From a virus (lineage: Duplodnaviria > Heunggongvirae > Uroviricota > Caudoviricetes), in IMG/VR virus record IMGVR_UViG_3300037461_000469, positions 29,752 to 93,751 of that record: DNA of 64,000 bases, one strand, 5' to 3'. Below are positions 10,585 to 47,358 of this stretch, piece by piece. A program made the translations under genes and the position numbers. How positions within the stretch are numbered: position 1 is the stretch's first letter; each line of letters opens with the position of its first letter. The notes beneath the pieces are model-generated. The model saw only the letters and a program-made list of their open reading frames with translations, made no database searches and was not told the origin of the DNA.

Positions 10585-11535
10585 TCACACCCCGTAACCG
10601 AAATGCTCTTTCAGCATTTCAACCACTAGGCTATTAACCTCTTCGTAGCGGGGCTTGGAAGGAAGCGGCGATTTCTCGCTCATCTTTTCCACCCACTTTT
10701 CCAATTCCTCTCCGAGTTTCAAAACCTCGTTGAGTTTCCACTTGCCTTCCTTGACCTCTAGGACGAGTTGCCTGTCCTTCAACGGGAATTGCAAATCGCC
10801 CGTTTCAAGCAGTTCCATCCCTTCCATCAGAAGCCGAAGAAAATGCGAAGCGAACTTGGTATCGTAGCCTTTGCTCAGGTAGAGTTCCTTGCGGTTCCCT
10901 ACTTTCTCTAAGCGTTCGCTTATCTTTTTAACAACCCACCTGAGTTGACGGGTCAGTTCGAAGTCCAAGTCTCCGATAGTTACGTGCTTTTGCTTGAACA
11001 TCATAAACGGCAGATTTTTGTCCTTCAACTCCACCATGTAAGTCTCAGGCTTGTTAAACTCCACCATCCAATCAAGAGCATTTTTCAGTTCGTAGAACTT
11101 GTCAGTCCTGATTACCATTTTGTGTTTTTGCGAAAAGCCGTAGCCCAAAAACTTGTGCATCAAGCCCCGATGCAAAAACAGATGGCGGTTGTCCAAAAGT
11201 TTGAGACCCATTTCGTTCAGGAACAACACGTTCGGCTCGTTCACGAACAGTTGCTCCACCACGTTCGGGTTGTTCTCTAGGGACAGCCGCACGAACTTGC
11301 GGAACTCGTAGAGTTTGCGGTCAACAGCGTCAGGGTTGTTCTTGCCGTCCTTGCCCTTCGACACAACGGAAAGGTCAACCTCTTCGACAGCGTTCAGCCC
11401 AAGGTAGTACTCTTCGGGAGCCACGAACACGCCGCTGAAGTCCTCGTCAGAGGTCGGGGTGTTAGTGCCGTACAGATGGGAGCCTACCCTGTATTCAAGG
11501 ATTCTTCCCTTTTCAGCAAAAAGTCTTTCGTTCAT
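10585..11535 (-). CDS. Pol-beta superfamily nucleotidyltransferase (RNA-repair-associated type)
   Basis: N-terminal GS...D.D motif (RVGSHLYGTNTPTSDEDFSGVFV) typical of minimal nucleotidyltransferases. Confidence 0.5.
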   Translation of the reverse strand: MNERLFAEKGRILEYRVGSHLYGTNTPTSDEDFSGVFVAPEEYYLGLNAVEEVDLSVVSKGKDGKNNPDAVDRKLYEFRKFVRLSLENNPNVVEQLFVNEPNVLFLNEMGLKLLDNRHLFLHRGLMHKFLGYGFSQKHKMVIRTDKFYELKNALDWMVEFNKPETYMVELKDKNLPFMMFKQKHVTIGDLDFELTRQLRWVVKKISERLEKVGNRKELYLSKGYDTKFASHFLRLLMEGMELLETGDLQFPLKDRQLVLEVKEGKWKLNEVLKLGEELEKWVEKMSEKSPLPSKPRYEEVNSLVVEMLKEHFGYGV

Positions 11536-31463: not shown

Positions 31464-32426
31464 TTACTTCTGAAAATCCTTCAACGAATAAACCATCGGC
31501 ATCCCGACTTGACTTGAACTTGTCGGCACGAAGACGAAGGTGGAGTTCTTGGAGTGAGCAACGTCCTTCATCATCTGAATGGCCTCAAACTGCAAGTACT
31601 GCGGGGTCAAGGTCTGATGAATAATGTCCTGAGCCTTCGCAATACCTTCGGCGTTCTTAATACGAATCTTGGCATCCATTTCGGACTTTTTCAACTCGTA
31701 CTCCTTGGCCTGAAGTTGCTGTTGCTGTTCAAGTTTCATACCGATAGCGGCAGTAACCCTTTGGTCTTCGGGAACTACGTTCCGAATCATAACCGTGTCG
31801 ATGACTACACCCTTGTCGTGTGTCAGTTTAATCAGGATTTCGTCAATCTTTTTTGTCAATTCGGTACGACCTTTTACAGACGTAATCTCTTCAAAGGTGT
31901 AATAAACCGAAGCGTCCCTGACGGCTGAACGAATTGCGGGGAACGTAATCATATCGTCAATATCGCTCTCCGTTGCGGAAATATCACGCCGAATCATCTT
32001 CACTTGATTTTTAAGAATCTTCCACCAAATCGTAGCGTCAACCTTGACCGCCAACTTGTCGGAAGTCAATGCCTGAAGATAGTTGCCGTCCTTAATATCC
32101 ATCGTGGTCTCCCGCAACTGCACATTGTACGTAACGGTGGACGCAAACGGACTCTTAAAGTTGATACCCTCTGTCAGCACATTATCGAGTACCTTACCGA
32201 ACATGATTTGGACTTTAACCTCACTCGCATCGACTGTAGTGATACAGCGAGACAGAAAACCAAGCCCAAATACAATGAGCATACACAGACCAACGAAAGA
32301 CCCTATGCGTCCCGCATTGGCTGATTCCTCATCATGCCCCTTGATTGCCACGGCGCGAACGCCCTTGCCAATCCACATAACAACAAGACCTATGACCGCT
32401 AAGGCCAATACAACAATACCGCCCAT
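31464..32426 (-). CDS. SPFH/Band-7 (prohibitin/HflC-like) membrane protein
   Basis: N-terminal TM segment, SPFH core, and a coiled-coil (QQQQLQAKEYELKK...). Confidence 0.6.
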   Translation of the reverse strand: MGGIVVLALAVIGLVVMWIGKGVRAVAIKGHDEESANAGRIGSFVGLCMLIVFGLGFLSRCITTVDASEVKVQIMFGKVLDNVLTEGINFKSPFASTVTYNVQLRETTMDIKDGNYLQALTSDKLAVKVDATIWWKILKNQVKMIRRDISATESDIDDMITFPAIRSAVRDASVYYTFEEITSVKGRTELTKKIDEILIKLTHDKGVVIDTVMIRNVVPEDQRVTAAIGMKLEQQQQLQAKEYELKKSEMDAKIRIKNAEGIAKAQDIIHQTLTPQYLQFEAIQMMKDVAHSKNSTFVFVPTSSSQVGMPMVYSLKDFQK

Positions 32427-32667: not shown

Positions 32668-33450
32668 TTATTTCATTTCAGCAGTAGCCTGTATCACACA
32701 ATTATTAAGAAACTCTCTATCTTGGGTAAAAGTAGGAGCGTGTGCAGTTGCCCATTTGCTACGGCTTACATCATTGATAAGGGTGTGAACTTTGATAATC
32801 ATTCTACCCCTCTTGTACTTGGGGGCGTAGTCGTTCCAATTCTGCCCCTTCTGAAAAATCATTTCCTGAAGTTCTGTCGTGTTCTTGCCGTTCATTTCCT
32901 TGTGCGAGTAGAGAGATTGTGCAACCGAAAGGATACTGTTGCGAACACAGTCCTGTTGTCTCCAAATGAAGTAGTTTTGTACCTCGTCCCACTCAGGGAT
33001 TTGAAATACCCTGCTGTCGAACTCACCCCACTTCATGTTACGAGTGCAGGACTCAATTGTGTGTGGGCCTTCCTCGTAAGCAAACCTTTTCAGCCTAGCC
33101 TCATTGAATGCCCTCGTTGCCATACTTGCCGACACGCTTGCCATCTTCTGAATGTTGTTGTCGAACCAAGCATCCGTTGTGAGTTTGTCGAAGTCCATGA
33201 GAAGAATAGAAATCTCATCGGACTGCACGTAGGCGAACTTGGCTCCCTGAATGTTCTTGCAGAGGTCGGCCGCAGTTGCGTCCATGTCCTCAATAAATCC
33301 ATCATCGAACGGACGAGTCAGCCCACGCGTGTACGTGTGGAAAGCCTTCCCGTCAATTCGGATAATGGTGTGCGTTCTACGGGGCAGACAAATTCGTGTT
33401 CTGTCCTCGTAGTTCGATTTCATCCTATTTCCGATGTCATCTTTCTTCAT
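32668..33450 (-). CDS. Thg1-like protein (tRNA-His guanylyltransferase family 3'-5' polymerase)
   Basis: IIRIDGKAFH...AYVQSDEISILL and WRQQDC motifs match the Thg1/TLP family; the gene sits between two tRNA-Leu genes. Confidence 0.7.
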   Translation of the reverse strand: MKKDDIGNRMKSNYEDRTRICLPRRTHTIIRIDGKAFHTYTRGLTRPFDDGFIEDMDATAADLCKNIQGAKFAYVQSDEISILLMDFDKLTTDAWFDNNIQKMASVSASMATRAFNEARLKRFAYEEGPHTIESCTRNMKWGEFDSRVFQIPEWDEVQNYFIWRQQDCVRNSILSVAQSLYSHKEMNGKNTTELQEMIFQKGQNWNDYAPKYKRGRMIIKVHTLINDVSRSKWATAHAPTFTQDREFLNNCVIQATAEMK

Positions 33451-33760: not shown

Positions 33761-33836
33761 GAACTCCCAAATTCTTGCGTCCAAGGCAAGCGACTTAACC
33801 GTTAGTCTAATTCCCAATACAGCCGTTGATGGTACT
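33761..33836 (-). tRNA. tRNA-Pro(TGG) (U1:A72)
   Basis: AC CTTGC-CTTGGAC-GCAAG; T-loop TTCGAAT; CCA encoded. Confidence 0.7.
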
Positions 33837-33839
33837 GCC

Positions 33840-33910
33840 CCACCGCCTCACGGTTCAGAGCCGTGTGTAATGCTATTTTACTAAACGGCTAAAAGCACCC
33901 CTGAGAGGAA
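33840..33910 (-). tRNA. tRNA-Gln(CTG), compact non-canonical subfamily (T-loop GGCAGTA)
   Basis: AGCCGTT|TA|GTAA-AATAGCA-TTAC|A|CACGG-CTCTGAA-CCGTG|AGGC|GGTGG-GGCAGTA-CCATC|AACGGCT. Confidence 0.5.
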
Positions 33911-33915
33911 TTGAA

Positions 33916-33987
33916 CCTCTACTGTAGGTTTAGGAAACCTGTGCGCTATCCGTTACACCACAGGGGCTTAAAAACGACAGGTCATAC
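33916..33987 (-). tRNA. tRNA-Arg(CCT) (G1:U72, no CCA)
   Basis: AC CAGGT-TTCCTAA-ACCTA, T-loop TTCAATT. Confidence 0.65.
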
Positions 33988-33992
33988 GACAA

Positions 33993-34108
33993 GGTGAGAA
34001 CACTTCGGGTGCGACCCGACCATCGTAAAGTCTTTAAACTAACCACGTGAACTCGCATCTCACCATTAGGGGAAATTGCGTGTCTAGTTCCACGCCGCTG
34101 TCGTTAAA
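33993..34108 (-). ncRNA. structured RNA element S1 (tRNA-like 5' domain plus expanded body; unknown function)
   Basis: Termini AACGACAG / CTGTCGTT are complementary; the internal conserved block CCACGCCGCTG is shared with S2 and S3. Confidence 0.45.
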
Positions 34109-34116
34109 TAGTGCAG

Positions 34117-34186
34117 GGCTGCTCCGATTCGAACAGAGATAAATGGGTTCAAAGCCCATCACCCTAACCATTGGGTTACAGCCCTA
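34117..34186 (-). tRNA. tRNA-Gln(TTG) (A1:U72)
   Basis: D-stem ACCC/GGGT, AC ATGGG-CTTTGAA-CCCAT, T-loop TTCGAAT; short variable loop. Confidence 0.6.
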
Positions 34187-34190
34187 TACG

Positions 34191-34262
34191 CATCCCCGAA
34201 GGGAATTGAACCCCTACTAAGGGTTTAGAAGACCCTTGCGCTATCCGTTACACCACGGGGAC
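34191..34262 (-). tRNA. tRNA-Arg(TCT)
   Basis: AC AGGGT-CTTCTAA-ACCCT; paralog of the Arg(CCT) gene. Confidence 0.7.
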
Positions 34263-34300
34263 ATAAAATTGCTTGTAGAAGAAGGGAGCCTTTCGGCCCC

Positions 34301-34645
34301 CTATTCAACACCTAGAACGTTTTTCAGCCTTGCCTTGTTGATGAATAAACTGTAGTCGTGCCAATTTGCGAAAATGGTTGCTTCCTCTAACATCACCGCT
34401 TCCACCTCTCCGTCTGATAACCCTCTGTCTTCCCATTCATCGCAACCACTACAACTCCCGTAGGAGTAGTTGTAACTGAACACCCGGCCGTCCCCCAACA
34501 ATACGTCTACGTCTACGTGGCCTTGGTAGTCATCCTCGTAGTCTGCCCTCAACAATTTCATGGCTCCCAGTTTGTCCAACACACTTTGCAAGTTGTCTGC
34601 GTAACGTCCCATGTGGCTTACTTCTACTTTGTTTTGTTCTGACAT
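34301..34645 (-). CDS. hypothetical acidic protein
   Basis: ORF within the tRNA island. Confidence 0.45.
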   Translation of the reverse strand: MSEQNKVEVSHMGRYADNLQSVLDKLGAMKLLRADYEDDYQGHVDVDVLLGDGRVFSYNYSYGSCSGCDEWEDRGLSDGEVEAVMLEEATIFANWHDYSLFINKARLKNVLGVE

Positions 34646-34705
34646 TTTGCACCTCCAAATGCCTTAGTGATGCTTCTTCGTATCAGAACATTAAAATTGC
34701 TAAAT

Positions 34706-34793
34706 TGGCGATGGGTGAAGGAGTTGAACCTCCGCTACTGTTACGTAGGCTTCGGTTTAGCAAACCGACACATTACCGCTCTGTCAACCCACC
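34706..34793 (-). tRNA. tRNA-Ser(GCT), type II
   Basis: AC TCGGT-TTGCTAA-ACCGA; long variable arm; CCA encoded. Confidence 0.7.
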
Positions 34794-35120
34794 CTATTTT
34801 TTCTTAGTCCACACGAACCCTAAAAGCAAACGATGTATTTTCCTATGAAACCAATTGGGAATTTTTCCATTCGGGGGTTCAACAGTTATACAACCACCAA
34901 ATAAAGAACAATGCCAATCCCCTGGCGAAGTGGTTACTGTATAAATGGGCATATAAGGGGAGTTCAAGATTTTTTCATCAGAGGACTTGGTAAAATGACA
35001 CCCCTTACAACAATCAAAAACTTCTTGGTTAGAAAAATGAATATCATATTCGGGACAACTTGAATGTAAAATATTTTTCAATTTTGTTTTTTTAGTAAGA
35101 GGACACTTTTTACTAATCAT
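34794..35120 (-). CDS. MIPKxCPL paralog family member 5
   Basis: MISKKCPLTKKTKLKNILHSSC N-terminus; its stop abuts the 5' end of tRNA-Ser. Confidence 0.5.
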   Translation of the reverse strand: MISKKCPLTKKTKLKNILHSSCPEYDIHFSNQEVFDCCKGCHFTKSSDEKILNSPYMPIYTVTTSPGDWHCSLFGGCITVEPPNGKIPNWFHRKIHRLLLGFVWTKKK

Positions 35121-35158
35121 TTATTATCCTGTTTATATTATATCATATTTTGTTTTTT

Positions 35159-35241
35159 CGGAAAGAGCAAGATTCGAACTTGCGGGTCTTTCGACCTTCC
35201 GCTTTCCAAGCGGATGCAATAGACCGCTCTGCCATCTCTCC
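35159..35241 (-). tRNA. tRNA-Ser(GGA), type II
   Basis: AC TCCGC-TTGGAAA-GCGGA; T-arm GCAAG-TTCGAAT-CTTGC. Confidence 0.7.
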
Positions 35242-35244
35242 ATT

Positions 35245-35339
35245 TGGCGGGAAGAAAGGGATTCGAACCCCTGAAGGATGGTATTAGCACCCTTGTCTGC
35301 TTTCAAGGCAGATGCATTAAACCGCTCTGCCATCTTCCC
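35245..35339 (-). tRNA. tRNA-Ser(TGA), type II with very long variable arm
   Basis: AC TCTGC-CTTGAAA-GCAGA; CCA encoded. Confidence 0.65.
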
Positions 35340-35349
35340 GTAATAAAAA

Positions 35350-35420
35350 TGCCCAATGATGGTTACGCTCCACCGCCTCGTCTTTGTAGGAGACATATTC
35401 TACTATTAAACTAATCGGGC
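35350..35420 (-). tRNA. tRNA-Val(TAC), compact non-canonical subfamily (C33; T-loop AGCGTAA)
   Basis: GCCCGAT|TA|GTTT-AATAGTA-GAAT|A|TGTCT-CCTACAA-AGACG|AGGC|GGTGG-AGCGTAA-CCATC|ATTGGGC. Confidence 0.45.
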
Positions 35421-35427
35421 ATACAAG

Positions 35428-35499
35428 TACCCCCCAAGGGAATCGAACCCCTGTCTCCTCGTTCGTAGCAAGGTGTTCTATCCGTTGAACTAGGAGGGC
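35428..35499 (-). tRNA. tRNA-Arg(ACG)
   Basis: AC CCTTG-CTACGAA-CGAGG; G1:U72; T-loop TTCGATT. Confidence 0.7.
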
Positions 35500-36147
35500 T
35501 TATTTTTCGTAAAACATAGGACTAGGATAATGATGCAACATGAACTGATTCTGCACAGTCGAATGTGTCGGATAGTTGTAGCATATATGGGGGTTGATAC
35601 AATACACGTTCATTCCCTTTTGTAAGTCCCTGAGTAATGCATCGAACGGGGCAGGGAACCTGTCATACATAACGATAATTCTGTCGTAAATTCTCTTGTT
35701 GATGATTACGCCGTGTACGCCGAAAGCGGATATTACTTTGTACACGTTCTTACAGATTCGTACAGGCCTGTAGCCGTCTTGGTCTGTATGCGCACCCGCA
35801 AGATACAACATATCCCAATCCTTCGGAACTGCTTCTAGAAAGCCTTCCAAATGCTCGTTGAAATCATCCACGAGAATCAAATCATCTTCAAACAAGGCAA
35901 CTGCTCTAGAGTGATAATACTTGCGTATAATTCGCTTGTATGATTCCAAACACCCGAAGGCATTTAGGCCGTGGCGGGTGATGTCTTCGGCGGGATACAT
36001 ATGTTCTACGTCTTTCCCCGCAATTGCGGGAAAAAGTTCAGCCGTGATTCCCAACTTGTTAAATTGGATGTTCATATGATTTGTCTTGAACTCGTTTAGG
36101 CTGAGTAGAACAACGTTATCAACGATTGTGTGTAAAATGCTTTTCAT
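35500..36147 (-). CDS. glycosyltransferase family 25-like protein
   Basis: N-terminus VLLSLNEFKTNHMNIQFNKLGITAELFPAIAGKD resembles the GT25 start. Confidence 0.45.
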   Translation of the reverse strand: MKSILHTIVDNVVLLSLNEFKTNHMNIQFNKLGITAELFPAIAGKDVEHMYPAEDITRHGLNAFGCLESYKRIIRKYYHSRAVALFEDDLILVDDFNEHLEGFLEAVPKDWDMLYLAGAHTDQDGYRPVRICKNVYKVISAFGVHGVIINKRIYDRIIVMYDRFPAPFDALLRDLQKGMNVYCINPHICYNYPTHSTVQNQFMLHHYPSPMFYEK

Positions 36148-36176
36148 TCTTGCTCCCCTATTATTTAGGGGAAAAG

Positions 36177-36247
36177 TGGGTCTAGAGGGAATCGAACCCC
36201 CATCTTCAGGTTAAAGGCCTGCTCGTCTACCGTTGACATATAAACCC
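36177..36247 (-). tRNA. tRNA-Lys(TTT)-like with C32-C33 anticodon loop (CCTTTAA)
   Basis: Canonical D and T arms; AC stem CAGG/CCTG with a 27:43 mismatch. Confidence 0.5.
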
Positions 36248-36254
36248 ATAAAAG

Positions 36255-36325
36255 TGAAGCCGGAGGGAATCGAACCCACATAGATTGATTAAGAGTCAAC
36301 TATTCTTCCGTTGAATTACGGCTCC
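36255..36325 (-). tRNA. tRNA-Lys(CTT)
   Basis: AC GTTGA-CTCTTAA-TCAAT. Confidence 0.65.
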
Positions 36326-36329
36326 ATAA

Positions 36330-36480
36330 AACCGACAGGTTGAAATTTATATTTCAACTTTCCTACTTTTCCATCGTATCTTTACCTTCTAGATTAGGTG
36401 TAGGAATCGTCTATCTGTCTAGTATTCCTCTAGAAAACACGCAAACGATAGTGTGTACTCTATCCACACCGCTGTCGGTT
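36330..36480 (-). ncRNA. structured RNA element S2 (paralog of S1)
   Basis: Termini ACCGACAG / CTGTCGGT are complementary; conserved internal block; internal 8-bp hairpin GTTGAAAT/ATTTCAAC. Confidence 0.45.
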
Positions 36481-36494
36481 AAAATTGCAAAAAA

Positions 36495-36568
36495 TGGTGA
36501 GGCCGAGAAGAATCGAACTTCTATAGATTGATTAAAAGTCAACTATTCTGCCGTTGAATTACGACCCC
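36495..36568 (-). tRNA. tRNA-Lys(TTT)
   Basis: AC GTTGA-CTTTTAA-TCAAT; CCA encoded. Confidence 0.7.
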
Positions 36569-36575
36569 ACAAAAC

Positions 36576-36657
36576 TGCCTAGGGTGGGATTTGAACCCAC
36601 ATGAGCCGAAGCCCAACGGATTTTAAGTCCGCACGGTATACATTCCACCACCTAGGC
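36576..36657 (-). tRNA. tRNA-Leu(TAA), type II
   Basis: Acceptor GCCTAGG/CCTAGGC; AC GCGGA-CTTAAAA-TCCGT. Confidence 0.7.
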
Positions 36658-36670
36658 GTAATAATTCAAA

Positions 36671-36746
36671 TGGTGGCAAGGGGAGGAATCGAACCTCCAT
36701 TTCCCGCTCTTCAGGCGGGTGCTATGACCACGTAAGCGACCTTGCC
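36671..36746 (-). tRNA. tRNA-Phe(GAA)
   Basis: AC CCCGC-CTGAAGA-GCGGG; CCA encoded. Confidence 0.75.
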
Positions 36747-36748
36747 TT

Positions 36749-36834
36749 TGGTGTTGCTGAAAGGCATCGAACCTTCACCCCTTACGGGACAGGACTCTCA
36801 TTCCTGCGTGTCTACCAAGTTACACCACAGCAAC
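36749..36834 (-). tRNA. tRNA-Leu(GAG), type II
   Basis: AC CAGGA-ATGAGAG-TCCTG; CCA encoded. Confidence 0.65.
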
Positions 36835-36842
36835 ATAAAAAA

Positions 36843-36921
36843 TGGCGGGGGCGAAGAGATTCGAACTCCTAACTCACAGGGGTTAACGGCCCCCGGTTCT
36901 ACCGATTAGAACTACACCCCC
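36843..36921 (-). tRNA. tRNA-Asn(GTT) with C33 (loop CCGTTAA)
   Basis: AC GGGGG-CCGTTAA-CCCCT; CCA encoded; 7-nt variable region. Confidence 0.6.
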
Positions 36922-37176
36922 ACTCTAACATCATGCATATTGATGATGATTATTCTTCGTAAAAGTCCGAAGTCAAAATAAATTTCAAATCTGCGATTGT
37001 TTTTAGCAAAGGTCAAATGGGAGCCTAATTCAATACAGCCGTCAAAAGCCTTTGCCCAAGTAAAGTAAATTTTTTTGTGTCTAAAAAGTCTAAACTCTTT
37101 CTCCACTAAAAAAGGACTTCTGTTGTACTCACAATCATGTTCATCTTCTTTTTTCATTTTTACCTCTTGTTAATTT

Positions 37177-37250
37177 TGGAGCGGGTAGAGGTAGTCGAAA
37201 CCTCATCCTTTGGTTGGAAGCCAAATATTCTACCGTTGAACTACACCCGC
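37177..37250 (-). tRNA. tRNA-Gly(TCC) (U73)
   Basis: AC TTTGG-CTTCCAA-CCAAA; T-loop TTCGACT; CCA encoded. Confidence 0.75.
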
Positions 37251-37310
37251 AAGCGGACGAAAATATTAGAAATTTGAAATTCGAATTTCACAAAAACACT
37301 AAATATATGT

Positions 37311-37931
37311 ATGGGATTAATAAAAGGACATTGTAGCCATTGTGGAAAAAATTTTTCAAAAAAAGGGTCTATTGAAAACTATAACCGATGGAAAACTCAT
37401 TTTTGTTCGAAAGACTGTCAAGATAAATATAAAATGACAAAAATAAAAGTGATTTGTAAAAACTGCAATAAAGAATTTGAAAAACAACTGAAACGAATAG
37501 TAACTAATAATTTCTGTTCTTCTTCTTGTGCCGCTATTTATAATAACACTCACAAAACAAAAGGAACCCGAACATCAAAGTTAGAGGTTTGGCTTCAGGA
37601 ACAACTACGAACTCTGTATCCAAAAGAAGAAATTCTTTTCAACGATAAGACCGCTATTAACTCAGAGTTGGATATTTACTTCCCTCGTCTAAAATTAGCC
37701 TTTGAATTGAACGGTATTTTTCATTACGAACCAATTTACGGGAAAGAAAAACTTGAACAAATTCAAAACAACGACCAAAGAAAATTTCTTCTTTGTCAAC
37801 AAAAAGGAATCTCGCTTTGCGTGATTGATGCTTCGAAAGAAAATTATTTCAAAGAAGAACGAAGCAAAAAATATTTAGATATTGTTATTGATATTTTTCA
37901 AAAGGCGGCGAAGGGAGTCGCACCCATTTAG
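37311..37931 (+). CDS. putative homing endonuclease, Zn-ribbon + Vsr-like (DUF559/PD-(D/E)xK) nuclease domain, paralog 1
   Basis: N-terminal CxxC pairs; C-terminal LDIYFPRLKLAFELNGIFHY matches the Vsr core D-I-x-F-P..KLA...G.F.H; AT-rich; the 3' end overlaps tRNA-Cys. Confidence 0.5.
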   Translation: MGLIKGHCSHCGKNFSKKGSIENYNRWKTHFCSKDCQDKYKMTKIKVICKNCNKEFEKQLKRIVTNNFCSSSCAAIYNNTHKTKGTRTSKLEVWLQEQLRTLYPKEEILFNDKTAINSELDIYFPRLKLAFELNGIFHYEPIYGKEKLEQIQNNDQRKFLLCQQKGISLCVIDASKENYFKEERSKKYLDIVIDIFQKAAKGVAPI

Positions 37932-37973
37932 ACGGTTTTGCAGACCGCTGCCTAACTGTTCGGCCACGCCGTC
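37903..37973 (-). tRNA. tRNA-Cys(GCA)-like, non-canonical T-loop TGCGACT
   Basis: AC GCGGT-CTGCAAA-ACCGT; acceptor has one A:C mismatch; overlaps the 3' end of Vsr-like paralog 1. Confidence 0.4.
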
Positions 37974-37978
37974 CTACA

Positions 37979-38061
37979 CGGAGAGAGCAAGATTCGAACT
38001 TGCGCCCCTTTCGGGGAACGGCTTTCGAAACCGCCACGATAGACCACTCTGACATCTCTCC
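37979..38061 (-). tRNA. tRNA-Ser(CGA), type II
   Basis: AC GCGGT-TTCGAAA-GCCGT; paralog of the Ser(GGA) gene. Confidence 0.7.
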
Positions 38062-38065
38062 ACAA

Positions 38066-38136
38066 AGCGGATTATCGGCTCTGCCCCGATACTCCAACGT
38101 TGGCAACGTTGGGTGCTACTATTACACCAAACCCGC
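38066..38136 (-). tRNA. tRNA-Gly(GCC), compact non-canonical subfamily (U73; T-loop GGCAGAG)
   Basis: GCGGGTT|TG|GTGT-AATAGTA-GCAC|C|CAACG-TTGCCAA-CGTTG|GAGT|ATCGG-GGCAGAG-CCGAT|AATCCGC. Confidence 0.5.
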
Positions 38137-38145
38137 AGAAATTCG

Positions 38146-38217
38146 CACCCCTACTAGGATTCGAACCCAGTCTCAATCGTTCGAAGCGATTGTTGCTTTC
38201 CATTACATCATAGGGGC
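38146..38217 (-). tRNA. tRNA-Arg(TCG)
   Basis: AC AATCG-CTTCGAA-CGATT; G1:U72. Confidence 0.65.
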
Positions 38218-38222
38218 ATAAT

Positions 38223-38376
38223 ACCGCTAGGCGGGGCTTGATTCCCGCTGACCGTTATCTAGCCATTGTAGTTTAACCGTATCACTTGCCACCCTGGTCT
38301 TTCGGGCTACGGGTTCTGTCCAATTGAGGACATAGGCGTTCGCTACAATGCGGTGTCCTTCCACGCCGCTAGCGGT
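38223..38376 (-). ncRNA. structured RNA element S3 (paralog of S1/S2)
   Basis: Termini ACCGCTAG / CTAGCGGT pair; the two changed positions on one strand are matched by the complementary changes on the other (covariation relative to S1/S2); T-arm-like hairpin GCGGG...CCCGC next to the 3' strand. Confidence 0.45.
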
Positions 38377-38529: not shown

Positions 38530-38701
38530 ATTTACGTAATGAAGCGTTGGATGCTACGATATGAAAACGGTTCAAAGCCACCTGACGAGAACGATTCGCC
38601 AAAACCCGCTTACGAAACGGGTATTTTGCCAATTAAATTAAGGTGGCATAAAAAAGAGCCATAAAAGAGATTCGAAAATGAGATTTTCACTAAATAGTAG
38701 T

Positions 38702-39364
38702 ATGAGTATAGAAAAAGATATTTTGTATTGTAATTATTGTCATAAAAAACTTGAAAGGGTTTGGGTGCGATATGGAAAAAGAGCAACCCAAAATCACTAT
38801 TGCTCTGCTGACTGTTTACATCAATTTAGAAATAAAGCACAATTAGTTTCTTGTAAAAATTGCGGAAAAGAATTTATGAAAAGATTAGACCAAATTAAAA
38901 AATTCCCTAATAATTTTTGTTCCCAATCTTGCGCCGCCATTTATAATAATGCTCACAAAACAAAAGGAACCCGAACTTCAAAACTTGAAGTTTGGTTACA
39001 GGGGCGATTACGAACCCTTTACCCTAACGAAGAAATTCTTTTCAACGATAAAACTGCTATCAACTCCGAATTAGATATTTACTTTCCTCGTTTGAAGTTG
39101 GCTTTTGAGTTGAATGGTATCTTCCATTACGAACCTATATACGGAAAAGAAAAACTTACACAAATTCAAAACAACGACCAAAGAAAGTTTTTACTTTGCC
39201 ATCAAAAAGGAATTTCGCTTTGTGTAATTGACACATCGAAACAGAAATACTTTAAAAAAGAACAAAGTGAAAAATATTTAAAAATCATAACAGATATAAT
39301 TCAGCCGCCGGAGGAAATTGCATCCCCAACATCCGCATTACAGGTGCGGCACTCTGCTAATTGA
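38702..39364 (+). CDS. Vsr-like homing endonuclease paralog 2
   Basis: About 75% identical to paralog 1 over the nuclease domain; start set at the MSIEKDILYC shared with paralog 3; C-terminal read-through into the tRNA-Thr gene. Confidence 0.5.
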   Translation: MSIEKDILYCNYCHKKLERVWVRYGKRATQNHYCSADCLHQFRNKAQLVSCKNCGKEFMKRLDQIKKFPNNFCSQSCAAIYNNAHKTKGTRTSKLEVWLQGRLRTLYPNEEILFNDKTAINSELDIYFPRLKLAFELNGIFHYEPIYGKEKLTQIQNNDQRKFLLCHQKGISLCVIDTSKQKYFKKEQSEKYLKIITDIIQPPEEIASPTSALQVRHSAN

Positions 39365-39403: not shown

Positions 39404-39476
39404 AATTTCTACGGGGAGTCGAACCCCGATTTTCTGGTTGCAGGCCAGATGTACGCCCGTTATACTATAGCCCCAT
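39404..39476 (-). tRNA. tRNA-Ala(TGC)-like with mismatched 5' acceptor strand (possible 5'-editing substrate or pseudogene)
   Basis: Canonical D, AC (TCTGG-CCTGCAA-CCAGA) and T arms, but 5' GGGGCTA against 3' TAGAAAT leaves G:A mismatches at positions 2-4. Confidence 0.35.
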
Positions 39477-39577: not shown

Positions 39578-39653
39578 GTGTGCCGTTGGGATTTGAACCC
39601 AAGCCTCCCGCCTTCTGCGGCGGGTGTGCTATCCAGCCTACACCATTAGCACA
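39578..39653 (-). tRNA. tRNA of undetermined specificity (palindromic anticodon arm CCCGCC-GCAGAA-GGCGGG)
   Basis: Canonical D-loop AGGCTGGATA and T-loop TTCAAAT; anticodon loop is 6 or 8 nt long, not 7. Confidence 0.4.
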
Positions 39654-39753: not shown

Positions 39754-39759
39754 ATATTC

Positions 39760-39799
39760 AAAATAAAATTAAATACTGCGGGGCGGGTGGTCCCGCCCC
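39760..39799 (-). terminator. intrinsic terminator (minus-strand direction)
   Basis: 8-bp GC stem GGGGCGGG/CCCGCCCC followed, in the minus sense, by a U-rich tract. Confidence 0.5.
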
Positions 39800-40387
39800 A
39801 AAAAGTTATAATGGATGACCGCCGACAGAGACTTGACGCATGAAGGCGGTACTTAGGCAGATGTAGGCTCGTATGATTGGCCCACTTCGCCTTAACCTAA
39901 GTCAATCTTGGTGCGGGGCTATTGGTAACACCGTGGTCAAACAGCATTACCAACAGCCTGACCTTCCGCACACTTTCCAAACACTCTAATTTGAACCTAC
40001 AGAAATCCACGAATGTCGCACCACCAACGAATTTCTGACGATTCTCTTTTACCATAATTACTGACCGCTAATGGAATTGTTCCGAATCTCTGTGCGATTG
40101 AGAATGGTTCCGCTAACTGTATTAAAAGCACCACCCCTGTCCCATCATAATCCAAAATCTAAATGATTTCGCAGGGTGGCTGACTTAAAATCGAATCTTA
40201 CTCAGGGGCTAACAGGTTCCACGACAACCCGTTGCCTCTGAGTTCCGTCTAATCTTTTTAATTTTAATTATGTCCGCTGACCTAAATCTCAGGCCTTGGT
40301 CGTGGAAAGGTCAAAGATTTATTTCTGCCAACGGATTCAAAGGTGGTGTCCTTATAAGGGACAACCTTCCAACCTAAGAACAAAATG

Positions 40388-40478: not shown

Positions 40479-40549
40479 TCCCCAATGACGGTACTGCCCC
40501 GCCGTCTGACGATTATCGGTCGCCGGTTCTGCTATTGAACTAAATGGGG
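40479..40549 (-). tRNA. tRNA-Ile(GAT), compact non-canonical subfamily (C33; T-loop GGCAGTA)
   Basis: CCCCATT|TA|GTTC-AATAGCA-GAAC|C|GGCGA-CCGATAA-TCGTC|AGAC|GGCGG-GGCAGTA-CCGTC|ATTGGGG. Confidence 0.45.
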
Positions 40550-40612
40550 ATGTATTGCTGACGGGGATTGAAAATTTTATTCCGATTTCTTTCAAAAACA
40601 CTAAATAATAGT

Positions 40613-41224
40613 ATGAGTATTAGCAAAGAAATTTTGTATTGTGATTATTGCCACAAAAACTTCAATGGATGGGTTCGTAATAAAAATAGGGAAAAAGAAA
40701 AACACTACTGTTCCCGATATTGTTATCGTCAAGCCAAAATCACAAAACAAACCGTTTCCTGTAAAAATTGCGGAAAAGAATTTGAAAAAACATTAGGTGA
40801 AATTAAAAAATATTCAAATCATTTTTGTTCTCACTCTTGTCGTGCCATTTATCAAAACACCCACAAAACAAAAGGAACCCGAATATCGAAGTTGGAAATT
40901 TGGCTTCGGGAACAATTACGAACTCTTTACCCTGACGAAGAAATTCTTTTCAACGATAAAACCACCATCAACTCTGAATTGGATATTTATTTTCCAAACC
41001 GCAAATTGGCCTTCGAACTAAATGGAATTTTCCATTACGAACCAATTTACGGAAAAGAAAAACTTACACAAATTCAAAACAATGACCAACGTAAGTTTTT
41101 ACTTTGCCAACAAAAAAATATTTCTCTTTGTGTGATTGATGCTTCAAAAGAAAATTACTTTAAAGAAGAACGAAGTAAAAAATATTTGAATATTATTATC
41201 AATATTATTAATAATCAAAAGTAG
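40613..41224 (+). CDS. Vsr-like homing endonuclease paralog 3
   Basis: Same domain layout; its stop overlaps the 3' end of tRNA-Glu. Confidence 0.5.
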   Translation: MSISKEILYCDYCHKNFNGWVRNKNREKEKHYCSRYCYRQAKITKQTVSCKNCGKEFEKTLGEIKKYSNHFCSHSCRAIYQNTHKTKGTRISKLEIWLREQLRTLYPDEEILFNDKTTINSELDIYFPNRKLAFELNGIFHYEPIYGKEKLTQIQNNDQRKFLLCQQKNISLCVIDASKENYFKEERSKKYLNIIINIINNQK

Positions 41225-41638: not shown

Positions 41639-42281
41639 AATAAAAATACAAATGGAATAACCTTTGGTTACTTGATTTACATAAATCTAAACTTTCCACT
41701 TATCACTAAAAATGGTGATGAGTGGAAATAATAAAATATTTCACGCCGCAAGCAAGGCCACATCCAAGTACTCGTTGCCGAAATACAAAAATGGGGGCAA
41801 CCCCTGCTCCACGGCACTATTGCTAACCTCTTGTGGTTTTTTGAGTATAGGAACTAGGATACGACTTCCGAGTACCACTCCCCACGGCTCACCACTAACC
41901 TCAATAAAAATCTTTCTGACCGCCGAATTTCACGGGATACTTTGGGTCATACTAGATTTAAAATTGCTACTTCTTTTTTTACATCTTGGTGAAAAAGAAT
42001 ACGAAGAAAAAACACCATCTTATAAAAGTGCTAGAAGTCAGCCACCACTACGGAAGAGCGTTTTATACACGTCTGCGAACTGCCTTTAAACTTCAGCCGC
42101 CATTCGTCAATGGCGAACTCGTAGATACAGGGACGATATGCCCTGCGGTGGCTGACTTCAAAATTGCAAGAGTCGAACTAGCCCTCTACGGCGTGAACGC
42201 TGAACCCGCACGTCTGCAAGGCTACTCGTAGAGTGGAATGACGGCTCTCTGCCGTTGGCTAATCCGACTCATAAAAAAGCA

Positions 42282-42357
42282 TGGCGGGACCGACGGGTAC
42301 TGCCCCCGCATATTCCACGCTGACAACGTGGCGCGCCTACTTGTGTGCCACGGCCCC
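42282..42357 (-). tRNA. tRNA-Asp(GTC), non-canonical T-loop GGCAGTA (G73, CCA encoded)
   Basis: AC CCACG-TTGTCAG-CGTGG; acceptor GGGGCCG/CGGTCCC. Confidence 0.5.
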
Positions 42358-45972: not shown

Positions 45973-47358
45973 CTACTTCTTATTTATTTCCTTTTCAATA
46001 CGCTTCCAATTATTTTGCGCCCAACGTTTCAGGAACTCCTTCTTGTTCTTCTCAGGGTTCATTATTACTAAATCAAGTAACCCTTTTAAAACTTTTCCTA
46101 TTATAATACCTGGCGGAATTCCAATTGATATTAAATCATCGCCATTAATAGCCAAATGAGAGATTTCATAGGGTTCTTTCTTGGCTAGGATATCGTCAAT
46201 CTGTGCGGCTCTAGACCCGTACTTCTCCATCCCCGCCTCAATCTTCTCAGGCTTATGCGCCCTGATATCTGCTAGCCGCATCGCCTTCCAATCTTCCAAG
46301 TAGTCTACGCCCAAGTTTCTGATGAAGTGCTTGATTTTGTTGCGCTTCTCAGGTTCGGCTTGGTGCAGGAAAATCAACCTGACGATTTTCGTGATTGCTT
46401 CGTTTTTGAATTTCAAACGGCGCAGAATAGGCTCTGCCAACTCTGCCGAAATCTTGTCGTGTCCGATGAACCTATCTCGTCCCGTTTCATCCCTGACCCT
46501 AGCCTTCTCCTTGCCGATATCGTGGAGCAGGGTTGCCCAACGAACGTCTAGACGTGCGGGCGCGCCGTCAATCACGTCCATCGTGTGTCCGAAGACGTTC
46601 TTGTGATGCCACGGGCTTTGCTGTGGAACGCTGTCGAGAACATCTACTTCGGGCAGAATGATTTTGAGCAGTCCAAGGTCGTGAAGCATTTGGATTCCTA
46701 CAGACGGCTTTGGGGTCAACAGGATTCCGTCAAGTTCGTCCTTGATTCTTTCAGACGAAACGTAGCGTAATCTTTCGGCGTTGCGTTTGATTGCCTTTTC
46801 CGTGTCAGTATCTAGTTTAAACCCGTAGCGGCTTGCAAAGCGAACCACTCGCATCAATCTGAGTGCGTCCTCGTGGAAGCGTTCTTCAGGACGGCCTACT
46901 GCTTTCAACGTGCCGCTTTCCAAATCTTCCTGACCGCCAAAGGGGTCAACAAGTTCACCTGTCAGCGGGTCGAAGGCCATTGAATTGATTGTCAAGTCCC
47001 TACGAGCCAAATCTTCCTTGATGTCTTTGGAGAACGATACGGCTTTCGGCCTACGGGCATCGGAGTAGTCTGCCTCTAGCCTGTAGGTGGTGATTTCAAA
47101 CTCTTCATCGTCTACGATAGCCGCCCACGTTCCATATTCTGCCCCCTTGTCGTAATTTTTTATCCCTGCATCAGTTAGAATTTTTTCTGTTTCTTTCGGA
47201 AGGGCATCAGTTGTGAAGTCCCAATCCTTCGGCTGTCTACCTAGCATGATGTCCCTGACACAACCACCTACAAGGTAGGCTTCGTGTCCTGCGTCATTAA
47301 AGAGTTGTGCAATTTCAAGGGCTTGCGGCGGGATGTCTCCAAAGTTTTTAAATTCCAT
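45973..47358 (-). CDS. cca: CCA-adding tRNA nucleotidyltransferase with HD domain
   Basis: AYLVGGCVRDIMLG...DWDF and RDLTINSMA motifs of class II tRNA nucleotidyltransferases; HD motif HTMDV...LLHDIGK. Confidence 0.8.
   Translation of the reverse strand: MEFKNFGDIPPQALEIAQLFNDAGHEAYLVGGCVRDIMLGRQPKDWDFTTDALPKETEKILTDAGIKNYDKGAEYGTWAAIVDDEEFEITTYRLEADYSDARRPKAVSFSKDIKEDLARRDLTINSMAFDPLTGELVDPFGGQEDLESGTLKAVGRPEERFHEDALRLMRVVRFASRYGFKLDTDTEKAIKRNAERLRYVSSERIKDELDGILLTPKPSVGIQMLHDLGLLKIILPEVDVLDSVPQQSPWHHKNVFGHTMDVIDGAPARLDVRWATLLHDIGKEKARVRDETGRDRFIGHDKISAELAEPILRRLKFKNEAITKIVRLIFLHQAEPEKRNKIKHFIRNLGVDYLEDWKAMRLADIRAHKPEKIEAGMEKYGSRAAQIDDILAKKEPYEISHLAINGDDLISIGIPPGIIIGKVLKGLLDLVIMNPEKNKKEFLKRWAQNNWKRIEKEINKK

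What the first reader, a model, noticed from the sequence alone, without database searches (positions are those of the whole stretch)
33993..38376. Three paralogous ~120-150 nt structured RNA elements (S1-S3) interleaved with tRNAs, with a terminal helix that changes in step on both strands
The three elements are:
- S1, 33993..34108
- S2, 36330..36480
- S3, 38223..38376
Each is bounded by 8-nt complementary ends: AACGACAG/CTGTCGTT, ACCGACAG/CTGTCGGT and ACCGCTAG/CTAGCGGT. In S3 the two changed positions (AC to CT) are matched by compensating changes in the partner strand (GT to AG), which is classic evidence for a real helix. Read in the minus sense they start with a conserved tRNA-like 5' half, acceptor strand + CG + D-arm hairpin, roughly GCGGYGTGGA...ACAC. 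They end with a hairpin next to the 3' acceptor-like strand, which in S3 looks like a T-arm (GCGGG-AATCAAGC-CCCGC). The 70-110 nt interiors diverge. They sit exactly where tRNAs sit, on the same strand, with no ORF. They could be tRNAs with large insertions or introns, or tmRNA-like or regulatory RNAs. Phage T4 carries small stable RNAs of unknown function in its tRNA cluster (RNA C, RNA D), which may be an analogue.
Basis: seen in the sequence. Interest (0 to 1): 0.75.

Follow-up and report, generated by a model that had tools for sequence, protein, structure and literature searches.

The report
Phage tRNA-shaped RNAs with swappable inserts
The three elements are real members of a large phage RNA family that I could not find in Rfam or the literature; it keeps the acceptor, D and T parts of a tRNA but carries a fast-changing 40-220 nt insert where the anticodon arm should be, and its job is unknown.

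Summary

They are not isolated paralogues. A short motif from them led to more than 150 distinct elements in IMG/VR viral contigs, prophage-like contigs and six cultured phages. The shared plan is:
- an 8-bp terminal helix that differs in almost every phage
- a C-R linker
- a 5-bp D-like hairpin with loop GAWGGA
- a hypervariable insert of 43-216 nt
- an invariant A
- a 5-bp T-like hairpin with loop U-AUCAAGC or U-UUCGAGU, directly abutting the 3' strand

All three helices covary strongly (about 98% paired; shuffled and slid controls are far lower). S3 is canonical. S1 and S2 keep the terminal helix and D-like hairpin but have lost the T-loop and the GAWGGA loop.

Rfam 15, ARAGORN (with introns allowed) and tmRNA detection give nothing. 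There is no anticodon arm, no encoded CCA and no conserved neighbouring protein. Where tRNA genes are present, the elements sit among them on the same strand.

Most likely these are tRNA-shaped RNAs matured by the tRNA-processing machinery, with the insert as a phage-specific payload. The function is not shown.

The parts
33973..34105 (-). S1, a divergent family member (133 nt). It lies 7 nt after tRNA-Gln(ttg) and 5 nt before tRNA-Arg(cct).
   Evidence: Model R1 gives 29.6 bits, E 7e-5, full length. Sequence, tRNA positions.
34098..34105 (-). S1 5' strand of the terminal helix (AACGACAG)
   Evidence: Perfect 8-bp complement of 33973-33980.
34078..34095 (-). S1 D-like hairpin, GCGUG-GAACUAGA-CACGC. 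The loop is not the family's GAWGGA.
33981..33990 (-). S1 short 3'-proximal hairpin, GUC-GUAU-GAC. It stands in place of the T-like arm and has no T-loop.
   Evidence: Model R1 skips the T-arm positions here.
33973..33980 (-). S1 3' strand of the terminal helix (CUGUCGUU)
36331..36479 (-). S2, a divergent family member (149 nt). It lies 15 nt after tRNA-Lys(ttt) and 5 nt before tRNA-Lys(ctt).
   Evidence: Model R1 gives 26.1 bits, E 4e-4. It is 97% identical to L079:7327-7475. Folding z = -5.4.
36472..36479 (-). S2 5' strand of the terminal helix (ACCGACAG)
   Evidence: Perfect complement of 36331-36338.
36451..36469 (-). S2 D-like hairpin, GUGUG-GAUAGAGUA-CACAC. Relative to S1 and S3 the C-G pair has become U-A.
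36339..36358 (-). S2 3'-proximal hairpin, GUUGAAAU-AUAA-AUUUCAAC (8 bp, tetraloop), in place of the T-like arm
36331..36338 (-). S2 3' strand of the terminal helix (CUGUCGGU)
38223..38376 (-). S3, a canonical family member (154 nt). It lies 79 nt after tRNA-Thr(ggt) and 5 nt before tRNA-Arg(tcg).
   Evidence: It carries the family 18-mer AGCGGCGTGGAAGGACAC and the consensus T-like arm. Model R1 gives 80.8 bits, but S3 is in the seed. Its insert is 95% identical in L079 and 87% in L195.
38369..38376 (-). S3 5' strand of the terminal helix (ACCGCUAG)
   Evidence: Perfect complement of 38223-38230.
38350..38366 (-). S3 D-like hairpin, GCGUG-GAAGGA-CAC(C)GC. It has the consensus loop and one bulged C.
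38250..38349 (-). S3 variable insert. It ends with the family's invariant A at 38249 (just outside this range).
   Evidence: Alignment A3. Insert comparison.
38231..38248 (-). S3 T-like hairpin, GCGGG-AAUCAAGC-CCCGC. It abuts the 3' strand with no spacer.
38223..38230 (-). S3 3' strand of the terminal helix (CUAGCGGU)

Best explanation
S1-S3 are genes for small non-coding RNAs of a widespread phage family that has the upper body of a tRNA.

The tRNA-like parts are:
- an 8-bp acceptor-like helix formed by the two ends
- two linker nucleotides (C-R) where a tRNA has positions 8 and 9
- a D-like hairpin whose loop GAWGGA carries a GG pair
- an invariant A
- a 5-bp T-like hairpin whose loop holds a U-C-R-A T-loop core, stacked directly on the 3' strand of the acceptor-like helix

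The anticodon arm and variable loop are replaced by an insert of 43-216 nt that differs in nearly every phage.

Proposed mechanism, which is inferred and not shown:
- In this jumbo phage the elements are transcribed with the tRNA array.
- RNase P cuts them out at the 5' side.
- Cleavage of the tRNA 5 nt downstream, followed by exonuclease trimming, makes the 3' end.
- The phage's own CCA-adding enzyme (45976-47358) may then add CCA.
- The tRNA-shaped core gives processing, stability and access to proteins that read the tRNA elbow and acceptor.
- The exchangeable insert carries a phage-specific activity that is still unknown.

S3 has the complete core. S1 and S2 keep the terminal helix and the D-like stem but have lost the loop pair that would form the elbow.

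My confidence in each step is about 0.95 that this is a real structured RNA family with this architecture, about 0.6 that it is matured by tRNA-processing enzymes, and about 0.35 that the insert is the effector.
For: Family and structure:
- The 18-mer AGCGGYGTGGAAGGACAC hits 62 IMG/VR stretches where about 3 are expected by my own estimate. Nearly all of them carry the same 3' module and a perfect terminal helix.
Of 100 such loci scanned, 97 give a full-length model match.
- Covariation in the set chosen by the 5' motif: terminal helix 7 of 8 pairs, T-like stem 5 of 5 pairs, score 0.559 against 0.126 shuffled.
- Covariation in the set chosen by the 3' motif: D-like stem 5 of 5 pairs, terminal helix 7 of 8 pairs, score 0.584 against 0.127.
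- G.U cells outnumber A.C cells 39 to 13, which fits an RNA of this sense.

Behaves like a tRNA gene:
- In the window the elements sit inside the tRNA array, on the same strand, 5 nt from the next tRNA.
- Across the family, 27 elements have a tRNA elsewhere in the fetched locus. Of these, 37% lie within 20 nt of it, against 2.4% for random placement, and 26 of 27 are on its strand.
- The phage encodes a CCA-adding enzyme, a Thg1-like enzyme and RNA ligases.

The insert probably matters:
- No member has an insert shorter than 43 nt.
- Genomes can hold 2-4 copies with different inserts: three in the window, four in L080 and tandem pairs in L291, L313 and L288.
- Elements at the same genomic position in three related phages have unrelated inserts.
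- The same terminal helix occurs with unrelated inserts, and the same insert occurs with a different helix.
Against: - No transcript, processing site or binding partner has been observed. Everything about maturation is inferred from shape and position.
- CCA is not encoded, and the 3' flank is not conserved.
- In about 10 of 61 members the helix runs 4-10 bp past the 8-bp core. That is unlike a free acceptor end.
- The T-like loop has 8 nt rather than 7.
- The inserts fold no better than dinucleotide shuffles (mean z = -0.29). They share no motif and 140 of 152 are singletons.
- The inserts show no excess complementarity to flanking phage DNA.
- These insert results are also what a merely tolerated spacer would look like.
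- Most members (126 of 153) have no tRNA in the fetched locus.
- Few members have their own terminator (5 of 58 by a strict scan).
Confidence: 0.55

Rival explanations
1. The core is the effector and the insert is tolerated filler. On this reading the RNA is a tRNA-shaped decoy or sponge. It would occupy a host protein that reads the tRNA elbow and acceptor, such as a processing or modification enzyme or a tRNA-targeting defence nuclease or transferase. It could not enter translation because it has no anticodon arm.
For: - The core is extremely conserved across phages of very different hosts.
- The inserts are unconstrained in sequence, share no motif and fold no better than shuffles.
- Whole tRNAs or tRNA-like modules can sit in the insert position without disturbing the core: L171, L200, L169 and Pan3.
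- The phage carries a tRNA repair and maturation gene set, which is typical of phages facing attack on tRNAs.
Against: - If only the core mattered, deletions should have produced members with minimal inserts, yet none is shorter than 43 nt.
- Several copies with different inserts in one genome would be redundant.
- S1 and S2 have lost the elbow loops but remain 97% conserved (S2) in a related phage.
- No defence system or enzyme is tied to the element by gene neighbourhood.
Confidence: 0.2
2. It is a cis-acting processing signal, a punctuation mark like the t-elements of plant mitochondria. RNase P and RNase Z would cut polycistronic phage transcripts at the tRNA-shaped fold, and the excised RNA itself would do nothing.
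For: - Most members lie between genes of the same orientation and have no terminator of their own.
- Several are followed within about 10-20 nt by a Shine-Dalgarno-like sequence (3' flanks).
- No conserved partner gene was found.
Against: - In this window the elements sit 5-15 nt from true tRNAs, which already supply cleavage sites.
- In Komagataeibacter phiKX1 and Caulobacter DMCA (sequence) and in L216 (terminator scan) the element is followed by a terminator-like hairpin, as a stand-alone small RNA gene would be.
- A punctuation signal needs neither a 43-216 nt insert nor the sequence-level conservation seen in both loops.
Confidence: 0.15
3. They are decoding tRNAs interrupted by an intron or carrying a giant variable arm. 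These are the first two options offered by the first reader.
For: - The acceptor-like, D-like and T-like parts are in tRNA order.
- The 8-bp plus 5-bp arrangement recalls tRNA-Sec and the allo-tRNAs described in PMC5389517.
- Ala and Asp tRNAs are not among the tRNAs found in the window.
Against: - No anticodon stem-loop follows the D-like arm in any member.
S1 and S2 were not in that test.
- The Rfam tRNA and tRNA-Sec models are silent even at E<=10.
- The acceptor-like helix has no conserved identity positions.
- The inserts are unrelated between positional orthologues, which is incompatible with a spliced tRNA body.
Confidence: 0.03
4. It is a DNA-level element, such as a recombination or attachment site, a single-strand origin or a homing-endonuclease target, whose inverted repeats only look like an RNA helix.
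For: - In Caulobacter phage DMCA the element lies between a transposase gene and an integrase gene.
- The array in the window is full of homing-endonuclease genes.
Against: - Three nested helices covary independently.
- Wobble pairs favour one strand, 39 G.U against 13 A.C.
- The orientation always follows the neighbouring tRNAs (26 of 27).
- There is no recurrent integrase or nuclease neighbour.
Confidence: 0.03

Closest known systems
tRNA-like domain of tmRNA (SsrA)
   Same: The 5' and 3' ends pair into an acceptor-type helix that stacks on a T arm. A large foreign domain occupies the place of the anticodon arm. tmRNA is matured by RNase P (established knowledge; PMC3985003).
   Different: tmRNA has G3.U70, an encoded or added CCA, a D-loop without a stem, pseudoknots and a tag reading frame. 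None of these is present here. ARAGORN and Rfam find no tmRNA.
Phage T4 species 1 and 2 RNAs (rnaC, rnaD)
   Same: They are small stable RNAs of unknown function encoded inside a phage tRNA array and made from the same precursor transcript as the tRNAs (PMC2330249). rnaC has a T arm next to a 3' strand that can pair with its 5' end.
   Different: There is no sequence or model similarity (best 9 bits). T4 rnaC has a canonical 7-nt TUCGAAU-type loop and no GAWGGA hairpin.
P1 C4 and P4 CI antisense RNAs (Rfam C4 family)
   Same: They are phage small RNAs with a tRNA-like terminal stem, cut out by RNase P, in which a conserved scaffold carries phage-specific variable loops. This description rests on my own knowledge.
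   Different: They are much smaller (about 70-80 nt), have no D-like or T-like hairpins, and have known antisense targets next to the gene. There is no Rfam match here and no local complementarity of the inserts.
Bacterial Y RNA YrlA
   Same: It is a non-coding RNA that mimics the tRNA D and T arm elbow without decoding, and it is also found in phages (PMC4201824).
   Different: In YrlA, from my own knowledge, the RNA ends lie in the Rsr-binding stem at the position of the anticodon stem, and the acceptor-like stem is closed. Here the ends form the acceptor-like helix. There is no Rfam match.
Bacterial tRNA-Sec and allo-tRNAs (8/5, 8/4 and 9/3 acceptor/T arrangements)
   Same: An 8-bp acceptor-type helix stacks on a 5-bp T-type stem, the D stem is extended, and there is extra material between the D and T arms (PMC5389517).
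   Different: Those are decoding tRNAs with an anticodon arm and CCA. The family here has neither.
Engineered tRNA scaffolds and plant mitochondrial t-elements
   Same: A tRNA body can be used as a processing and stability chassis for an inserted RNA, or as a cleavage signal in polycistronic transcripts. This description rests on my own knowledge.
   Different: The first is artificial and the second has no conserved sequence core. Neither is known as a natural phage family with swappable inserts.

Membership tests
New phage family defined here (model R1) | Terminal helix of at least 7-8 bp formed by the two ends, ending in an invariant G-C pair | tested here: met
   S1, S2 and S3 each have a perfect 8-bp helix ending in G-C.
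New phage family defined here (model R1) | C-R linker followed by a 5-bp hairpin | tested here: met
   All three elements have CG followed by GYGUG...CACRC. Across the family the C is present in 98 of 98 sequences and the R is G in 87 and A in 11.
New phage family defined here (model R1) | D-like loop GAWGGA | tested here: inconclusive
   S3 has GAAGGA and meets the feature. S1 (GAACUAGA) and S2 (GAUAGAGUA) do not.
New phage family defined here (model R1) | Invariant A, then a 5-bp hairpin with an 8-nt loop N-NUCRANN, abutting the 3' strand | tested here: inconclusive
   S3 has A + GCGGG-AAUCAAGC-CCCGC and meets the feature. S1 has a 3-bp hairpin and S2 an 8-bp tetraloop hairpin, and neither has a T-loop.
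New phage family defined here (model R1) | Significant full-length score with the covariance model | tested here: met
   S3 80.8 bits (in the seed), S1 29.6 bits (E 7e-5), S2 26.1 bits (E 4e-4). There is no other hit in the window.
Canonical tRNA (Rfam RF00005) | Score at or above the gathering threshold of the tRNA model | tested here: not met
   There is no tRNA match on S1-S3 even at E<=10, nor on canonical members.
Canonical tRNA (Rfam RF00005) | Anticodon stem-loop (5 bp, 7-nt loop) after the D arm | tested here: not met
   Constrained folds show irregular inserts, mostly with two hairpins. ARAGORN finds none.
Canonical tRNA (Rfam RF00005) | Acceptor helix stacked on a T arm, and a D loop with GG | tested here: met
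   The arrangement is 8 bp + 5 bp with no spacer, and GG lies in the D-like loop. The T-like loop has 8 nt rather than 7.
Intron-containing tRNA | A tRNA is recovered once an intron is allowed in the anticodon loop | tested here: not met
   ARAGORN with introns of 0-250 nt was run on 58 canonical members, including S3. It found only tRNAs nested inside two inserts and never the element itself. S1 and S2 were not in this set.
tmRNA (RF00023 and relatives) | Detection by ARAGORN or Rfam, the G3.U70 pair, and a tag reading frame | tested here: not met
   No tmRNA call was made. Position 3:70 is G-C, U-A, A-U or C-G, with G.U in only 1 of 54 sequences.
T4 rnaC/rnaD stable RNAs | Sequence and structure similarity to T4 species 1 and 2 RNAs | tested here: not met
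   Model R1 run on the T4 tRNA region with filters off gives a best score of 9 bits over 22 nt.
T4 rnaC/rnaD stable RNAs | Small RNA gene embedded in and co-oriented with a phage tRNA array | tested here: met
C4 antisense RNA, YrlA and other curated phage RNA families | Match to any of the 4227 Rfam 15 models | tested here: not met
   Only noise-level hits appear at E<=10 on S1-S3 and at E<=5 on canonical members. Only tRNAs reach the gathering threshold in 20 loci.
RNase P substrate (functional class) | Cleavage by RNase P at the 5' edge of the acceptor-like helix | not testable with these tools
   This needs an in vitro cleavage assay or 5'-end mapping.

The most novel reading that the evidence does not exclude
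Phages maintain a natural tRNA-scaffold cassette system. A conserved tRNA-shaped chassis would be processed and stabilised by the host tRNA machinery. Unrelated RNA payloads, including whole tRNAs, would be swapped into it by recombination at the conserved D-like and T-like arms. That would give each phage its own set of trans-acting RNAs, for example anti-defence or host-takeover RNAs, in an arms-race-like turnover.
Probability: 0.3. Interest if true: 0.88.

Novelty: new variant of a known kind. Interest (0 to 1): 0.75.

Why it matters
tRNA mimicry by non-coding RNAs is known from tmRNA, YrlA, viral 3' tRNA-like structures and mascRNA. I found no description of a large phage-wide family with a near-invariant tRNA-shaped core and a freely exchangeable insert. 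It is absent from Rfam 15 and is unannotated in the five cultured phage records whose annotation I inspected.

If these RNAs are matured like tRNAs, three things follow:
- They would be an overlooked class of abundant phage small RNAs.
- They would be a natural counterpart of the engineered tRNA scaffold.
- They could be a route by which phages display variable RNA payloads to the host.

The finding also matters for annotation. Elements of this kind sit in tRNA arrays and intergenic gaps of many phage genomes and are currently left blank. Several cultured phages that carry the element make the question directly testable.

Tried and rejected
- Rfam 15 was run at gathering and at permissive thresholds on S1-S3 and on canonical members. 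Only tRNAs and noise came back.
- Megablast of the region against cultured phages found no match. The three inserts queried against cultured phages also found nothing.
- A purely structural scan (any 8-bp ends plus two hairpins) of 62 jumbo-phage loci was too noisy, with 67 hits against 43 in shuffles. I dropped it in favour of sequence motifs. One apparent hit, L079:2618-2771, was an ordinary tRNA-Met preceded by a partial repeat of its 5' end.
- Conserved neighbouring proteins: all-against-all BLAST of 392 flanking ORFs gave no cluster larger than three. Pfam and PHROGs scans of 73 immediate neighbours gave no family with more than two members.
- Antisense targets: the longest complementary match of each insert to its locus equals the shuffled expectation, 9.6 against 9.6 nt. 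A duplex-energy scan of the window timed out and gave no result.
- CsrA-type GGA motifs in the inserts are depleted rather than enriched. The apparent AGC enrichment is an artefact of my insert boundary, which includes the A-GC at the start of the T-like arm.
- The retron idea (terminal repeats plus an AGC next to the helix) has nothing to support it. No reverse transcriptase appears among the top 25 of 55 Pfam families shown for the window's ORFs (list cut at 25), and the T-like arm is conserved, unlike a retron's msd.
- The genome-contig scan mostly returned chance matches. About 11 of 41 hits are real, and those lie on prophage-like or metagenome-bin contigs.
- There are no members in 5,426 E. 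coli genomes.
- The literature held no sequence match and no description. The 2023 catalogue of 10,006 viral candidate RNAs (PMC10690425) could not be checked because its supplements are not held.

Full report
**1. What is in the window**

The window carries a minus-strand tRNA array from about 32.5 to 42.7 kb. ARAGORN tRNAs and the Rfam tRNA model finds several more. The array is interspersed with homing-endonuclease-like ORFs. A tRNA toolkit is also encoded nearby:
- a Thg1-like enzyme at 32668-33450
- a CCA-adding enzyme at 45976-47358
- an Rnl1-like RNA ligase at 51100-52323
- a further RNA ligase and an RlaP protein

A large terminase subunit and many phage families place the window in a jumbo phage. 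The closest relative found is the 223-kb IMG/VR contig 3300037851_000345.

Read on the minus strand, the three elements are:

| Element | Coordinates | Length |
|---|---|---|
| S1 | 33973-34105 | 133 nt |
| S2 | 36331-36479 | 149 nt |
| S3 | 38223-38376 | 154 nt |

Each element begins with an 8-nt strand that is perfectly complementary to its last 8 nt. After that come CG and a GYGUG...CACRC hairpin. The motif AGCGGYGTGGA occurs three times in 64 kb, only at these sites. Each element ends exactly 5 nt before the next tRNA. Only short chance ORFs overlap them.

**2. They belong to a large family**

Rfam 15 has nothing on the three elements, even at E<=10.

A search of IMG/VR with the 18-mer AGCGGYGTGGAAGGACAC returned 62 stretches. 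I estimate about three would be expected by chance. Almost all of them share one plan:
- N6-AG, then CG, then GCGUG-GAAGGA-CACGC
- a variable stretch
- A, then GCCGG-UAUCAAGC-CCGGC, then CU-N6'
- the N6 differs from contig to contig and is always matched by its complement

Of 100 such loci scanned, 97 gave a full-length match to a covariance model built from the first set.

Members also occur in these places:
- prophage-like contigs of Alpha- and Betaproteobacteria, Chloroflexota and Parcubacteria
- two plasmids
- the cultured phages Acidovorax AP1, Caulobacter DMCA, Komagataeibacter phiKX1 and phiKX2 (phiKX2 by BLAST match only), Pseudanabaena Pan3 and Alcaligenes QDWS595

In the five of these records whose annotation I inspected, the site is unannotated. 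None was found in 5,426 E. coli genomes.

Applied to the window, the model finds S3 (80.8 bits, in the seed), S1 (29.6 bits, E 7e-5) and S2 (26.1 bits, E 4e-4), at exactly the ends given above and nowhere else.

**3. Structure**

I used two alignments that were selected on opposite ends of the molecule, so each gives an unbiased view of the other end.

| Measure | Set chosen by the 5' motif (54 sequences) | Set chosen by the 3' motif (97 distinct sequences) |
|---|---|---|
| Terminal helix, pairs changed on both sides | 7 of 8 | 7 of 8 |
| T-like stem, pairs changed on both sides | 5 of 5 | 1 of 5 (stem largely fixed by the search pattern) |
| D-like stem, pairs changed on both sides | 1 of 5 (stem fixed by the search pattern) | 5 of 5 |
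| Cells paired | 97.5% | 97.9% |
| Covariation score, observed against shuffled | 0.559 against 0.126 | 0.584 against 0.127 |
| Covariation score, slid partners | 0.05-0.10 | 0.02-0.07 |

Examples of D-like stem variants are GCGUG/CACGC, GCGUU/AACGC, GCGCU/AGCGC and GCACG/CGUGC. Only the last pair of the terminal helix (G-C) never varies.

Wobble pairs favour this strand, with 39 G.U cells against 13 A.C cells. The structure is therefore an RNA of the minus sense in the window.

The invariant or nearly invariant nucleotides are:
- the closing G-C pair of the terminal helix
- the C-R linker
- the loop GAWGGA
- the A before the T-like stem
- the loop core N-U-C-R-A

**4. How tRNA-like it is**

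The order and spacing are those of a tRNA body:
- an acceptor-type helix
- two nucleotides
- a D-type hairpin with GG in its loop
- a T-type hairpin whose closing pair is G-C and whose loop contains U-C-R-A (the 55-58 core of a T-loop) after one extra nucleotide
- that hairpin abuts the 3' strand of the acceptor-type helix with no spacer

The stack is 8 + 5 bp, as in bacterial tRNA-Sec. The GG of the D-like loop and the UC of the T-like loop are where a tRNA forms its elbow. That these loops interact here is my inference and is not shown.

What is missing is everything needed for decoding:
- No anticodon stem-loop follows the D-like arm. Folds with the core constrained mostly give two irregular hairpins.
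- No position of the acceptor-type helix is conserved as an identity element.
- CCA is not encoded.

In roughly 10 of 61 members the helix continues for 4-10 more base pairs into the flanks.

**5. The insert**

Inserts are 43-216 nt long, with a median of 86 nt. Of 152 inserts, 140 have no detectable relative among the others. They have no enriched motif beyond a boundary artefact. Their folding energies are no better than those of dinucleotide shuffles, with a mean z of -0.29. They show no excess complementarity to the surrounding phage DNA and no match in cultured phages.

Four observations still suggest the insert is more than filler:
- No member has a short insert.
- Several genomes carry 2-4 copies with different inserts: three in the window, four in L080 and tandem pairs elsewhere.
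- Among close relatives the parts behave as modules:

| Comparison | Terminal helix | Insert |
|---|---|---|
| S2 and L080 element a | same | unrelated |
| S3 and L080 element b | same | unrelated |
| S3 and the L195 element | different | 87% identical |
| S1, L079 element c and L080 element d (same genomic position) | similar | unrelated |

- A few inserts are themselves tRNAs or tRNA-like modules: tRNA-Arg(CCG) in L171, plus L200, L169 and Pan3.

**6. Genomic context**

No protein family recurs next to the element. Most members are single and lie between genes of the same orientation. Few have their own terminator by a strict scan. The copies in phiKX1, DMCA and L216 are each followed by a terminator-like hairpin.

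When a tRNA is present in the fetched locus (27 of 153 elements), the element is within 20 nt of it in 37% of cases, against 2.4% for random placement. It is on the same strand in 26 of 27 cases.

Among 62 jumbo-phage loci that share the Thg1-like gene, only the two closest relatives of this window carry members.

**7. Interpretation**

The firm conclusion is that S1-S3 are members of a widespread phage family of structured RNAs with a tRNA-shaped core and an exchangeable insert. I found no prior description of it. S3 is canonical. S1 and S2 have lost the two loops that would form the elbow but keep the helix and the D-like stem.

The most likely mechanism is maturation by the tRNA machinery:
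- RNase P at the 5' side
- cleavage of the next tRNA plus trimming at the 3' side
- possibly CCA addition by the phage enzyme

This would yield a stable RNA whose core gives processing, stability and access to proteins that read the elbow and acceptor, and whose insert carries a phage-specific activity. The argument for this rests on shape, on tRNA-like placement and on the behaviour of the inserts. Nothing has been observed directly.

The main rivals are that the core itself is a decoy for a tRNA-binding factor, or that the element is merely a cleavage signal in polycistronic transcripts. Decoding tRNAs, tmRNA, retron RNA and DNA-level sites are contradicted by the tests above.

**8. Comparison with what is known**

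The closest functional analogues are:
- the tRNA-like domain of tmRNA
- T4 species 1 and 2 RNAs
- the RNase P-processed C4 and CI RNAs of P1 and P4
- YrlA
- engineered tRNA scaffolds

None is a relative. Rfam and ARAGORN are negative. Model R1 scores at most 9 bits on the T4 tRNA region, although T4 rnaC does show a T arm next to its 3' strand.

Literature searches by topic and by sequence string found no description. A 2023 catalogue of viral candidate RNAs (PMC10690425) may contain fragments of the family but could not be checked.

Noticed in passing
window 39754-40386 (minus strand): A 633-nt ORF-free stretch lies inside the tRNA array, between tRNA-Tyr and tRNA-Ile(tat). It folds far better than shuffles (-213 against -174.7 kcal/mol, z = -8.5). 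It is 88% identical over about 610 nt in the relative L079:3365-3973. It has no Rfam match at E<=1 and ends in a GGGGCGGG...CCCGCCCC hairpin. It may be a large structured RNA of an undescribed kind.
   Followed up: partly
window 35350-35420, 38066-38136, 39409-39470; by eye also 33817-33894, 40480-40560, 42280-42355: The first three are tRNAs that ARAGORN misses but the Rfam tRNA model finds. By eye the first two read as Val-UAC and Gly-GCC. The other three sites are tRNA-like by eye only. Five of the six share unusual T-loops (GGCAGUA or AGCGUAA) in place of the usual T-loop sequence, read by eye; 39409-39470 has an ordinary UUCGACU loop.
   Followed up: partly
window 39578-39653; L024:21-96 and L024:1194-1266: One tRNA has an 8-nt anticodon loop (ARAGORN anticodon 'caga'). 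In the related phage, its counterpart and the counterpart of tRNA-Arg(tcg) both read UCA. These are opal-suppressor-type tRNAs and hint at stop-codon recoding or frameshift suppression in this phage group.
   Followed up: no
window 32668-33450, 45976-47358, 51100-52323 (all minus strand): The window encodes a tRNA maturation and repair gene set. It includes a Thg1-like 3'-5' nucleotidyltransferase, a CCA-adding enzyme with an HD domain and an Rnl1-type RNA ligase. A further RNA ligase and an RlaP protein are present elsewhere in the window.
   Followed up: partly
window 37311-37931, 38678-39364, 40568-41224 (plus strand): Three paralogous homing-endonuclease-like ORFs with zinc-ribbon N-termini sit inside the tRNA array on the opposite strand. 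The relative L024 has different endonuclease ORFs at other positions in the array.
   Followed up: no
L171 (element 10661-10857), L200:3980-4135, L169:2023-2157, L247:1365-1527: Some family members carry a complete tRNA or a tRNA-like module nested in the insert position. L171 holds tRNA-Arg(CCG), and a second tRNA-Arg(CCG) lies 6 nt away.
   Followed up: partly
L243 about 2690-2715; L244:340-366: A second small hairpin motif, GC(G/A)GG-UGGAAG-CCC(C/U)GC, lies close to the element in both Acidovorax phage AP1 and Komagataeibacter phage phiKX1. Whether the two are linked is unknown.
   Followed up: no
window 31464-32426; L245:476-1309: An SPFH/prohibitin-family gene lies next to the tRNA and element region in this window. 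One also lies directly upstream of the element in Alcaligenes phage QDWS595. This may be coincidence.
   Followed up: no
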